Shown in pieces: positions 22,361 through 63,864 of a stretch of DNA of 64,000 bases (position 1 is its first letter; each line of letters opens with the position of its first letter). The DNA comes from Eledone cirrhosa (lineage: Eukaryota). The stretch covers positions 1,302,001 through 1,366,000 of the forward strand of contig OZ024755.1 of NCBI GenBank assembly GCA_964016885.1, in the 5' to 3' direction. The notes below the pieces were generated by a model, which saw nothing but the letters and a program-made list of their open reading frames with translations, searched no databases and was not told the DNA's origin. A program made the translations under genes and the position numbers.

Positions 22361-22440
22361 ATGGTGGCAGAATGACACAAAATGTTAAAATTGGTCAGGA
22401 AGGATTCCATCCTCAAAATGTTTCCCTTGAAGAGGGTCAG
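22361..22440 (+). CDS. Giant gene exon 1 (first visible; ATG at 22372)
   Basis: [31 protein letters not shown] acceptor, CAG|GTAAGT donor. Confidence 0.85.

Positions 22441-63864: not shown

What the first reader, a model, noticed from the sequence alone, without database searches (positions are those of the whole stretch)
22372..63864. Giant uncharacterised protein: 7 cupredoxin-like repeats, Fn3-associated domain and FN3 array
Seen: 48 phase-consistent exons give more than 2,600 aa. The N-terminal 700 or so aa contain seven repeats of the pattern V-x-V/I-x3-GF-x-P-x2-V/I-x-I-x2-G-x2-V-x-W-x-W...H-x-I/V...F-x2-P/S-G-x-Y-x-Y/F...G-x-I-x-V. A YTLDGT domain and about 13 FN3-like repeats follow. 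Established: that pattern is the plastocyanin/halocyanin-type cupredoxin beta-sandwich signature, normally found in small prokaryotic or plant electron carriers. Inference: this is a large scaffold architecture that I cannot match to any named animal gene, and the ORF track shows it only in fragments.
Basis: partly seen in the sequence, partly recalled or inferred. Interest (0 to 1): 0.8.

Follow-up and report, generated by a model that had tools for sequence, protein, structure and literature searches.

The report
Giant copper-less cupredoxin–FN3–thioredoxin scaffold
This is a real, unbroken gene of an old, unstudied family found in molluscs, worms, sea urchins and acorn worms; it encodes a huge protein with seven blue-copper-type domains lacking the copper site and a fibronectin-type rod, and its relatives add a predicted lipid anchor and a thioredoxin-like end, so it likely works inside the cell as a membrane tether, most likely at cilia.

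Summary
Observation confirmed. I rebuilt 48 GT-AG exons (22361-63864, +) giving 2,630 aa with no stop. The model is colinear with 3,000-3,900-aa 'uncharacterized' proteins of molluscs, annelids, a brachiopod, an orthonectid, echinoderms and hemichordates. The seven repeats have a plastocyanin-like fold (AlphaFold of an orthologue; Z 14.3), but 0 of 166 repeats keep the Cys-His-Met copper loop, so they are not type-1 copper electron carriers. The window holds only the middle of the gene. Orthologues begin MGxGAS (predicted myristoylation; fits the UNC119 high-affinity cargo motif) and have no signal peptide or membrane helix. They carry 16 FN3 domains and end in a TlpA-like thioredoxin fold (WCxxS) plus a basic tail with RPxSA, the CDKL5 kinase motif. 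Best reading: an intracellular, lipid-anchored scaffold (about 0.8), most likely a ciliary or basal-body membrane-to-microtubule tether (0.45). No localisation data were found. The oyster orthologue is expressed in gill and gonad without male bias, which argues against a sperm-only role. No chordate, arthropod, nematode or cnidarian member was named in the hits, but the searches were incomplete. No paper on the family was found. No RNA tested the junctions.

The parts
22361..63864 (+). 48 modelled coding exons (2,630 aa) of a gene open at both ends; first coding exon not found, 3' part beyond the window
   Evidence: orthologue colinearity
22361..26235 (+). Cupredoxin-like repeat 1 (aa ~6-96; exons 22361-22440, 24350-24397, 25631-25746, start of 26190-26402)
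26236..28800 (+). Repeat 2 (aa 97-197; exons 4-6 and start of 7)
   Evidence: exon 4 alone Pfam Cupredoxin_1 E=0.013, below the curated cut-off
28801..30753 (+). Repeat 3 (aa 198-302); first His ligand position kept in 24 of 24 sequences
30754..31668 (+). Repeat 4 (aa 303-417); His lost, long insertion
31994..32962 (+). Repeat 5 (aa 418-510); best structural match to Nitrosopumilus purple cupredoxin 5fc9 and plastocyanins; His kept in 22 of 24, ligand Cys absent
33655..34822 (+). Repeat 6 (aa 511-611)
34823..36202 (+). Repeat 7 (aa 612-707); His kept in 24 of 24
36718..38682 (+). Fn3-associated / CHB_HEX_C-type Ig domain (YTLDGT; exons 21-23). The family profile also matches DZANK1 residues 25-103 here
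39270..45400 (+). FN3 domains 1 and 2 (aa ~837-1030)
45400..48320 (+). Low-complexity Ser/Thr/Asp/Lys spacer (aa ~1030-1455), including in-frame 18-bp tandem repeats at 47412-48310; least certain part of the model
48320..63864 (+). FN3 domains 3-12 and start of FN3 13 (aa ~1455-2630)
   Evidence: exon 42 Pfam fn3 E=9e-13

Best explanation
The gene encodes the central 2,630 residues of a conserved giant beta-sandwich protein whose seven cupredoxin-fold repeats lack the type-1 copper site, and which likely works inside the cell as a lipid-anchored tether, most likely linking the ciliary or apical membrane to microtubules. Shown by sequence: the exon chain, the repeats and their missing copper loop, 16 FN3 domains in full orthologues, no signal peptide or membrane helix, a conserved MGxGAS start, a WCxxS motif and an RPxSA tail in orthologues. 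Predicted (AlphaFold of orthologues): the seven repeats pack into one compact head; the last FN3 carries an inserted coiled-coil hairpin and is followed by a TlpA/ResA-type thioredoxin fold. Inferred: (1) Gly2 is myristoylated and the protein is carried by UNC119 and released by ARL3 at the cilium; (2) the copper-less head is a rigid binding platform next to the membrane; (3) the variable disordered spacer and 14 FN3 domains form a flexible rod some tens of nm long; (4) the single-cysteine thioredoxin end binds or traps a partner rather than acting as a dithiol reductase; (5) the basic tail binds microtubules and is switched by a CDKL5-type kinase at RPxSA. Odds: intracellular lipid-anchored scaffold about 0.8 for the family; ciliary or basal-body site about 0.45.
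For: MGxG[AV]S at residue 1 in 16 of 23 orthologues, internal in 3 more whose models extend upstream, absent in 4. Small residues at positions 3-5 fit the UNC119 high-affinity cargo (USC) motif, and the Capitella start is identical over 8 residues to the myristoylated GNAT1 peptide tested in PMC8246649 (passages; N-termini). Highest 19-residue hydropathy 1.3-2.2 in all 24 sequences, with polar N-termini. RPx[ST]A in the last 130 aa of 19 of 23 complete sequences vs 0.29 expected from shuffles (related sequences, motif noticed after the fact); RPXSA is the CDKL5 substrate motif of MAP1S, CEP131 and DLG5, and CDKL5 localises to cilia (PMC6293279, passages). The family profile's Fn3_assoc segment matches DZANK1 25-103 at E=4.5e-6; DZANK1 acts in photoreceptor cilium cargo transport (PMC4617706, abstract). 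FN3s hit Pfam Ig_RIMBP2, from an intracellular FN3 scaffold (E=1e-27 whole protein in Mya). N-terminal model pLDDT 86.9, pTM 0.82; repeat 5 vs 5fc9 Z 14.3, rmsd 1.4 over 87. C-terminal domain vs SdbA 5um7 Z 17.0, rmsd 2.2 over 140; WCxxS in 19 of 22 complete orthologues. All named members come from phyla with ciliated epithelia or larvae (established knowledge). The oyster orthologue LOC111106240 is among genes expressed in gill, a ciliated tissue (PMC12040131 S1 File).
Against: No localisation or proteomic evidence was found. The gene id was absent from supplements of an oyster embryo single-cell study with four ciliated clusters and an echinoderm single-nucleus study; these hold selected markers only. 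In oyster gonad 0 of 3 listed isoforms are sex-biased while CCDC151 (7.7), RFX4 (4.6) and tektin-1 (2.6) are male-biased: against a sperm-flagellum role, though two FOXJ1 rows are also unbiased. No member was named from chordates, cnidarians or protists, which have motile cilia, so this is not a core ciliary gene. The USC motif also fits PKA, GNAI2, LCK and PCMTD1, and RPxSA also occurs in non-ciliary microtubule proteins. In this genome no MGxGAS exon was found in the 22 kb upstream on either strand, so the anchor is shown only for orthologues. Intoshia lacks MGxGAS, the Cys and RPxSA; Dimorphilus lacks the Cys.
Confidence: 0.45

Rival explanations
1. Intracellular membrane-anchored scaffold outside cilia: cell cortex, synapse (RIM-BP-like) or muscle (titin-like).
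For: Best PDB sequence matches of the FN3 array are titin, fibronectin and RIM-BP; Ig_RIMBP2 Pfam hits; myristoylation and RPxSA are not cilium-specific; no male bias in gonad; not among held ciliated-cell markers.
Against: The FN3 matches are generic single-domain hits. No SH3, Ig-I or kinase domain was reported by Pfam in the family members scanned. No named arthropod, nematode or chordate member, although these have synapses and muscle (incomplete searches).
Confidence: 0.3
2. A metal or redox sensor/chaperone: the retained His residues and nearby Cys bind Cu(I) or Zn in a non-blue site, and the thioredoxin domain keeps or reads their thiol state, as TlpA does for the copper proteins ScoI and CoxB in bacteria.
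For: First His ligand position kept in repeat 3 (24 of 24), 5 (22 of 24), 7 (24 of 24) and 2 (17 of 24); repeat 3 has Cys at the ligand position in 7 of 24; 16 alignment columns hold Cys in at least 80% of rows; top Foldseek hits of the C-terminal domain are TlpA-CoxB and TlpA-ScoI complexes.
Against: 0 of 166 repeats have a C..H..M/Q/L loop; in the 5fc9 alignment the ligand Cys and second His are replaced by Ser and Leu; the HN motif may be structural; the active-site Cys is lost in 2 of 22 orthologues.
Confidence: 0.13
3. Secreted or surface matrix/adhesion protein, as the FN3, cupredoxin and TlpA folds usually suggest.
For: These folds are mostly extracellular or periplasmic; conserved cysteines.
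Against: No signal peptide or membrane helix in 23 orthologues; conserved MGxGAS start; basic phospho-motif tail.
Confidence: 0.05
4. The family reading holds but this species' copy has lost the lipid anchor (starts at ATG 22372 or a divergent exon) and works differently.
For: No MGxxxS or GxG[AVSG]S on either strand of 1-22360; the model's repeats have long branches (0.5-1.4 vs median 0.39).
Against: Exon 1 has a strong acceptor and in-frame orthologous residues before the Met; a long first intron could place the exon outside the window; the frame is intact over 48 exons.
Confidence: 0.07

Closest known systems
Plastocyanin / amicyanin / Nitrosopumilus purple cupredoxin 5fc9 (PF00127, PF13473)
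   Same: Fold (Z 14.3 rmsd 1.4 over 87 to 5fc9; Z 11-12 to plastocyanins), GF-P..HN..G-Y-Y pattern, first His ligand in most odd-numbered repeats.
   Different: Seven tandem copies in an animal protein; no Cys-His-Met loop; predicted cytosolic; fused to FN3 and thioredoxin domains.
Multi-cupredoxin animal proteins: ceruloplasmin, coagulation factors V and VIII
   Same: Several cupredoxin domains packed in one chain; top Foldseek hits. Loss of copper sites in factor V/VIII is recalled knowledge.
   Different: Whole-model TM 0.10-0.13, so the arrangement differs; small plastocyanin-type domains; seven not six; no signal peptide; no trinuclear-site His motifs seen in the alignment.
TlpA/ResA/SdbA thioredoxin-like proteins (PF13905 clan)
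   Same: Fold Z 15-17, FWxxWC motif and GVPT loop.
   Different: CxxS rather than CxxC; long disordered insertion; end of a 3,500-aa animal protein; lies outside the window.
RIM-binding protein, titin, DZANK1 (intracellular FN3 / Fn3_assoc scaffolds)
   Same: FN3 type (Ig_RIMBP2 hits); Fn3_assoc-like segment shared with DZANK1.
   Different: Single-domain similarity only; no SH3, Ig-I, kinase, zinc-ribbon or ankyrin domains; not orthologues.
Public gene predictions LOC577931 (sea urchin), LOC105321045 (Pacific oyster), XP_070557721 (Ptychodera), CAPTEDRAFT_219540 and others
   Same: Orthologues: same domain order; repeats cluster by position.
   Different: All 'uncharacterized' or 'FN3 domain-containing'; no paper found for six ids.

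Membership tests
Cupredoxin superfamily (fold) | Greek-key beta-sandwich of the cupredoxin type | tested here: met
   AlphaFold of Ptychodera orthologue, pLDDT 86.9; repeat 5 Z 14.3 to 5fc9. Other repeats are supported by homology to repeat 5 and weaker rows; the window's own protein was not folded.
Type-1 (blue) copper proteins | C-terminal Cys-x(n)-His-x(n)-Met/Gln/Leu ligand loop | tested here: not met
   0 of 166 repeats; alignment to 5fc9.
Type-1 (blue) copper proteins | N-terminal His ligand (HN motif) | tested here: inconclusive
   His in R1 8/23, R2 17/24, R3 24/24, R4 not among the three commonest residues, R5 22/24, R6 11/23, R7 24/24.
Type-1 (blue) copper proteins | Copper binding and electron transfer | not testable with these tools
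   Needs spectroscopy.
Multicopper oxidases / factor V-VIII A domains | Triangular packing of large cupredoxin domains | tested here: not met
   Whole-model TM 0.10-0.13, rmsd above 30.
TlpA/ResA thioredoxin-like family | Thioredoxin fold with the TlpA insertion and cis-Pro loop motif | tested here: met
   Lingula orthologue model, Z 17.0; GVPT loop. Orthologues only.
TlpA/ResA thioredoxin-like family | CxxC dithiol active site | tested here: not met
   CxxS in 19 of 22, CxxA in 1, no Cys in 2, CxxC in 0.
N-myristoylated UNC119 high-affinity cargo | Gly2 with small residues at 3-5 and Ser6 | tested here: met
   16 of 23 orthologues at residue 1; motif from PMC8246649. Not found in this window.
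N-myristoylated UNC119 high-affinity cargo | Actual myristoylation, UNC119 binding, ARL3 release | not testable with these tools
   Experiment needed.
Ciliary / basal-body proteins | Presence in cilia proteomes or ciliated-cell clusters | tested here: inconclusive
   No id hit; one search uses SPU ids I could not map; the key sea urchin ciliome supplements could not be read.
RIM-BP / titin / DZANK1 orthologues | Shared domain architecture | tested here: not met
   Pfam scans and PDB sequence searches show single-domain similarity only.

The most novel reading that the evidence does not exclude
An undescribed bilaterian ciliary linker older than the protostome-deuterostome split: a myristoylated giant that reuses seven prokaryote-like plastocyanin folds as a copper-free (or non-blue metal-sensing) head and a TlpA-type monothiol thioredoxin as a tail, spans ciliary membrane to axoneme under CDKL5 control, and was kept in spiralians and ambulacrarians (ciliary-band animals) but lost in chordates and ecdysozoans.
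Probability: 0.3. Interest if true: 0.8.

Novelty: new variant of a known kind. Interest (0 to 1): 0.55.

Why it matters
All folds are known, but I found no description of this combination or family. It adds a 3,500-residue protein conserved in position-specific detail across protostomes and deuterostomes, and shows plastocyanin-type domains turned into a tandem, copper-free, probably cytosolic module in animals. Its three short signals (myristoyl/UNC119, WCxxS, CDKL5 motif) make the function directly testable in sea urchin, oyster or annelid larvae. If ciliary, it would be a candidate for lineage-specific structures of invertebrate ciliated epithelia that vertebrate and fly/worm models cannot reveal.

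Tried and rejected
No whole genome is held, so neither gene end could be fetched. Word-index search with exon 42 among proteins of 385-2000 aa found nothing (weak). A search with the C-terminal region found only 3 proteins, showing low sensitivity. One search missed 2 of the 23 species later used (Anneissia, Bulinus), and about 40 short hits from ENA/Logan/JGI carry no taxon, so absence from chordates, ecdysozoans, cnidarians and protists is suggested, not shown. No RNA holder listed; the three runs cover introns continuously and give no splice joints. The ESM Atlas gave bacterial thioredoxin-like clusters at 0.92-0.93 for the C-terminal domain and only sub-0.9 leads for repeat 2. The search for an upstream MGxGAS exon failed. 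A metagenome locus scan could not run. Acipenser, Spea, Notechis, Phrynosoma, Lissotriton and one Antedon hit (P0040) were rejected as generic FN3 proteins. A link to the PKHD1L1 cupredoxin-like domain was a recalled lead; the paper search gave 0 and no sequence test was made. DZANK1 did not reappear in single-sequence searches or fold searches. No complex prediction was run, since no binding partner is claimed. Lingula (fragmentary models), Saccoglossus and the second Dimorphilus gene were left out of the 23-orthologue counts; Lingula was added only to the tail count.

Full report
OBSERVATION. From the raw sequence I placed 48 exons on the + strand and joined them in a script: 22361-22440, 24350-24397, 25631-25746, 26190-26402, 26958-27002, 27932-28018, 28797-28893, 29353-29424, 29885-29919, 30639-30799, 31065-31205, 31511-31668, 31994-32110, 32628-32740, 32914-32962, 33655-33827, 34348-34420, 34766-34882, 35607-35675, 36046-36202, 36718-36887, 37352-37458, 38589-38682, 39270-39395, 41315-41467, 41782-41940, 42169-42265, 45341-45511, 46989-47224, 47390-48468, 49423-49539, 49962-50076, 50500-50635, 51363-51561, 51838-51958, 52573-52767, 53116-53302, 55228-55368, 56272-56373, 56701-56796, 57354-57521, 58321-58976, 59203-59478, 60037-60151, 60453-60657, 61366-61561, 62531-62607, 63588-63864. 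The product is 2,630 aa with no stop and every intron is GT..AG. Splice signals are well above background. Hand-picked exons could be made to fit, so the real test is homology: the model aligns to orthologues at 30-39% identity, and 38 of 47 junctions are crossed colinearly by at least 8 of 23 orthologues. The nine weaker junctions fall at variable loops and in the spacer. No RNA run was available; the three runs found behave as DNA.

WHAT IT IS. Exon 42 searched against 1.8 billion representatives gave 51 hits. Named true relatives there and are 3,000-3,900-aa 'uncharacterized' proteins from ten molluscs, three annelids, Lingula, Intoshia, seven echinoderms and three hemichordates. I used 23 species, one protein each. 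All share the order: variable N-terminus, seven repeats, Fn3_assoc, 2 FN3, a disordered spacer of about 110-740 aa, 14 FN3, a C-terminal domain and a basic tail. The window covers repeat 1 to the start of FN3 13. A tree of 49 repeats from 7 species groups them by position (6 of 7 positions form one side of a branch with 96-100% support; all together 6 changes, the least possible, against a shuffled mean of 33.9), so the seven-repeat array predates the protostome-deuterostome split. In that tree the window's repeats 3, 6 and 7 sit with spiralians. The intron repeats look like those of octopus genomes; that is recalled, not tested.

THE REPEATS. AlphaFold on Ptychodera residues 41-856 with 23 rows gave pLDDT 86.9 and pTM 0.82, all-beta domains, which suggests the repeats pack into one defined head. 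Repeat 5 matches 5fc9 at Z 14.3 (rmsd 1.4, 87 aligned, 29% identity) and plastocyanins at Z 11-12; amicyanin and other cupredoxins follow. Foldseek ranks factor VIII, ceruloplasmin and factor V first but with TM 0.10-0.13, so domain packing differs. None of 166 repeats has the Cys-His-Met/Gln/Leu loop; the first His is kept mainly in repeats 2, 3, 5 and 7, and 7 of 24 repeat-3 copies have a Cys at the ligand position. They are cupredoxin folds but not blue-copper sites.

PARTS OUTSIDE THE WINDOW. 16 of 23 orthologues start MGxG[AV]S, 3 have it internally behind longer predicted starts, 4 lack it. None has a signal peptide-like start or a convincing membrane helix (hydropathy scan only). PMC8246649 (passages) describes the UNC119 high-affinity motif as small or medium residues at positions 3-5, with release by ARL3 at the cilium or immune synapse; the Capitella start equals the tested GNAT1 peptide over 8 residues. 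AlphaFold on Lingula residues 947-1373 (pLDDT 79.9) shows an FN3 with an inserted helical hairpin (1cfb Z 12.7) and a TlpA/ResA-type thioredoxin (5um7 Z 17.0). The active-site position is WCxxS in 19 of 22. The tail holds RPx[ST]A in 19 of 23 vs 0.29 expected (related sequences). RPXSA is the CDKL5 motif (PMC6293279, passages). The Fn3_assoc segment of the family profile matches DZANK1 (E=4.5e-6), a protein needed for photoreceptor cilium cargo transport (PMC4617706, abstract only); single-sequence and fold searches did not repeat this. In this genome I found no MGxGAS exon in the 22 kb upstream.

HOW IT LIKELY WORKS. A myristate at one end, a basic kinase-regulated tail at the other and a long modular rod between is the anatomy of a tether. 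I infer membrane anchoring at the N-terminus, a rigid copper-free head, a spacer and FN3 rod, a monothiol thioredoxin as partner-binding or trapping module, and a tail on microtubules. That it is intracellular and lipid-anchored I put at about 0.8. That the site is the cilium or basal body I put at 0.45, on three weak, converging hints (UNC119 motif, CDKL5 motif, DZANK1-like domain) plus the taxon list. Against: the oyster orthologue is expressed in gill (4 isoform rows) and gonad (3 rows) with no sex effect, while CCDC151, RFX4 and tektin-1 are male-biased (PMC12040131, passages and supplement rows). The ids were not in the held supplements of PMC10396339 or PMC12551290. PMC3812683's table uses SPU ids I could not map. 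Supplements of PMC10396302 and of bioRxiv 10.1101/153437 (main-text passages only) could not be seen and may decide the question. Rivals are a non-ciliary cortex, synapse or muscle scaffold (0.3), a non-blue metal or redox sensor (0.13), a species copy without anchor (0.07) and a secreted protein (0.05).

COMPARISON AND NOVELTY. It is a member of the cupredoxin fold superfamily but not of the type-1 copper proteins or multicopper oxidases; it has a TlpA fold but not the CxxC site; it is not an orthologue of RIM-BP, titin or DZANK1. Searches for six gene ids and for term combinations found 0 papers, and one search found one unrelated paper; subscription journals are mostly not covered. No earlier scan note matched by sequence or place; a word search listed only bacterial or unrelated cases. 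The range is uncertain: no chordate, ecdysozoan, cnidarian or protist member was named, but one search missed 2 of 23 known species and many fragments have no taxon.

VERDICT. Real gene, correctly read. An undescribed, old family built from known folds in a combination I could not find described. Function inferred, not shown. Interest 0.55; novel case probability 0.3, interest 0.8.

Noticed in passing
window 52870-53141: A 46-bp tandem repeat (6.1 copies) contains the acceptor and first codons of exon 37; only the last copy continues in frame, the upstream copies read into a stop, so they form decoy splice acceptors.
   Followed up: no
window 39390-39575 and 31190-31375: Donor-side sequence of exons 24 and 11 is also tandemly repeated into the intron, giving several GT donor copies.
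   Followed up: no
window 47412-48310: In-frame 18-bp tandem repeats (about 22 and 27 copies) encode a 24% Ser, Val/Lys/Thr-rich spacer; orthologues have unrelated low-complexity spacers at the same place.
   Followed up: partly
window 12700-14887: Long minisatellite open in all three + frames for about 720 codons; reads as a repeat array, not a gene.
   Followed up: no
window 22935-23528: 197-codon frame resembling the C-terminal part of a LINE reverse transcriptase (recalled resemblance) in intron 1; similar scraps near 20500-21000 and 50700-51080.
   Followed up: no
window 53336-55117, 55596-56217, 29940-30610, 46212-46816: Large intronic minisatellites (51 bp x35, 33 bp x19, about 40 bp, 34 bp x18).
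   Followed up: no
P0019 (Dimorphilus DgyrCDS1941) vs P0078 (DgyrCDS1945): Dimorphilus has a second, 1,710-aa family member on the same scaffold with FN3 array and thioredoxin fold but no cupredoxin Pfam hit and no active-site Cys: a shortened paralogue or partial model.
   Followed up: partly
P0003 residues about 960-1030 (outside window): A predicted coiled-coil hairpin is inserted after the first strand of the last FN3 domain and is conserved (GLEERRQ..NKRDRL consensus), a possible dimerisation or partner site.
   Followed up: partly
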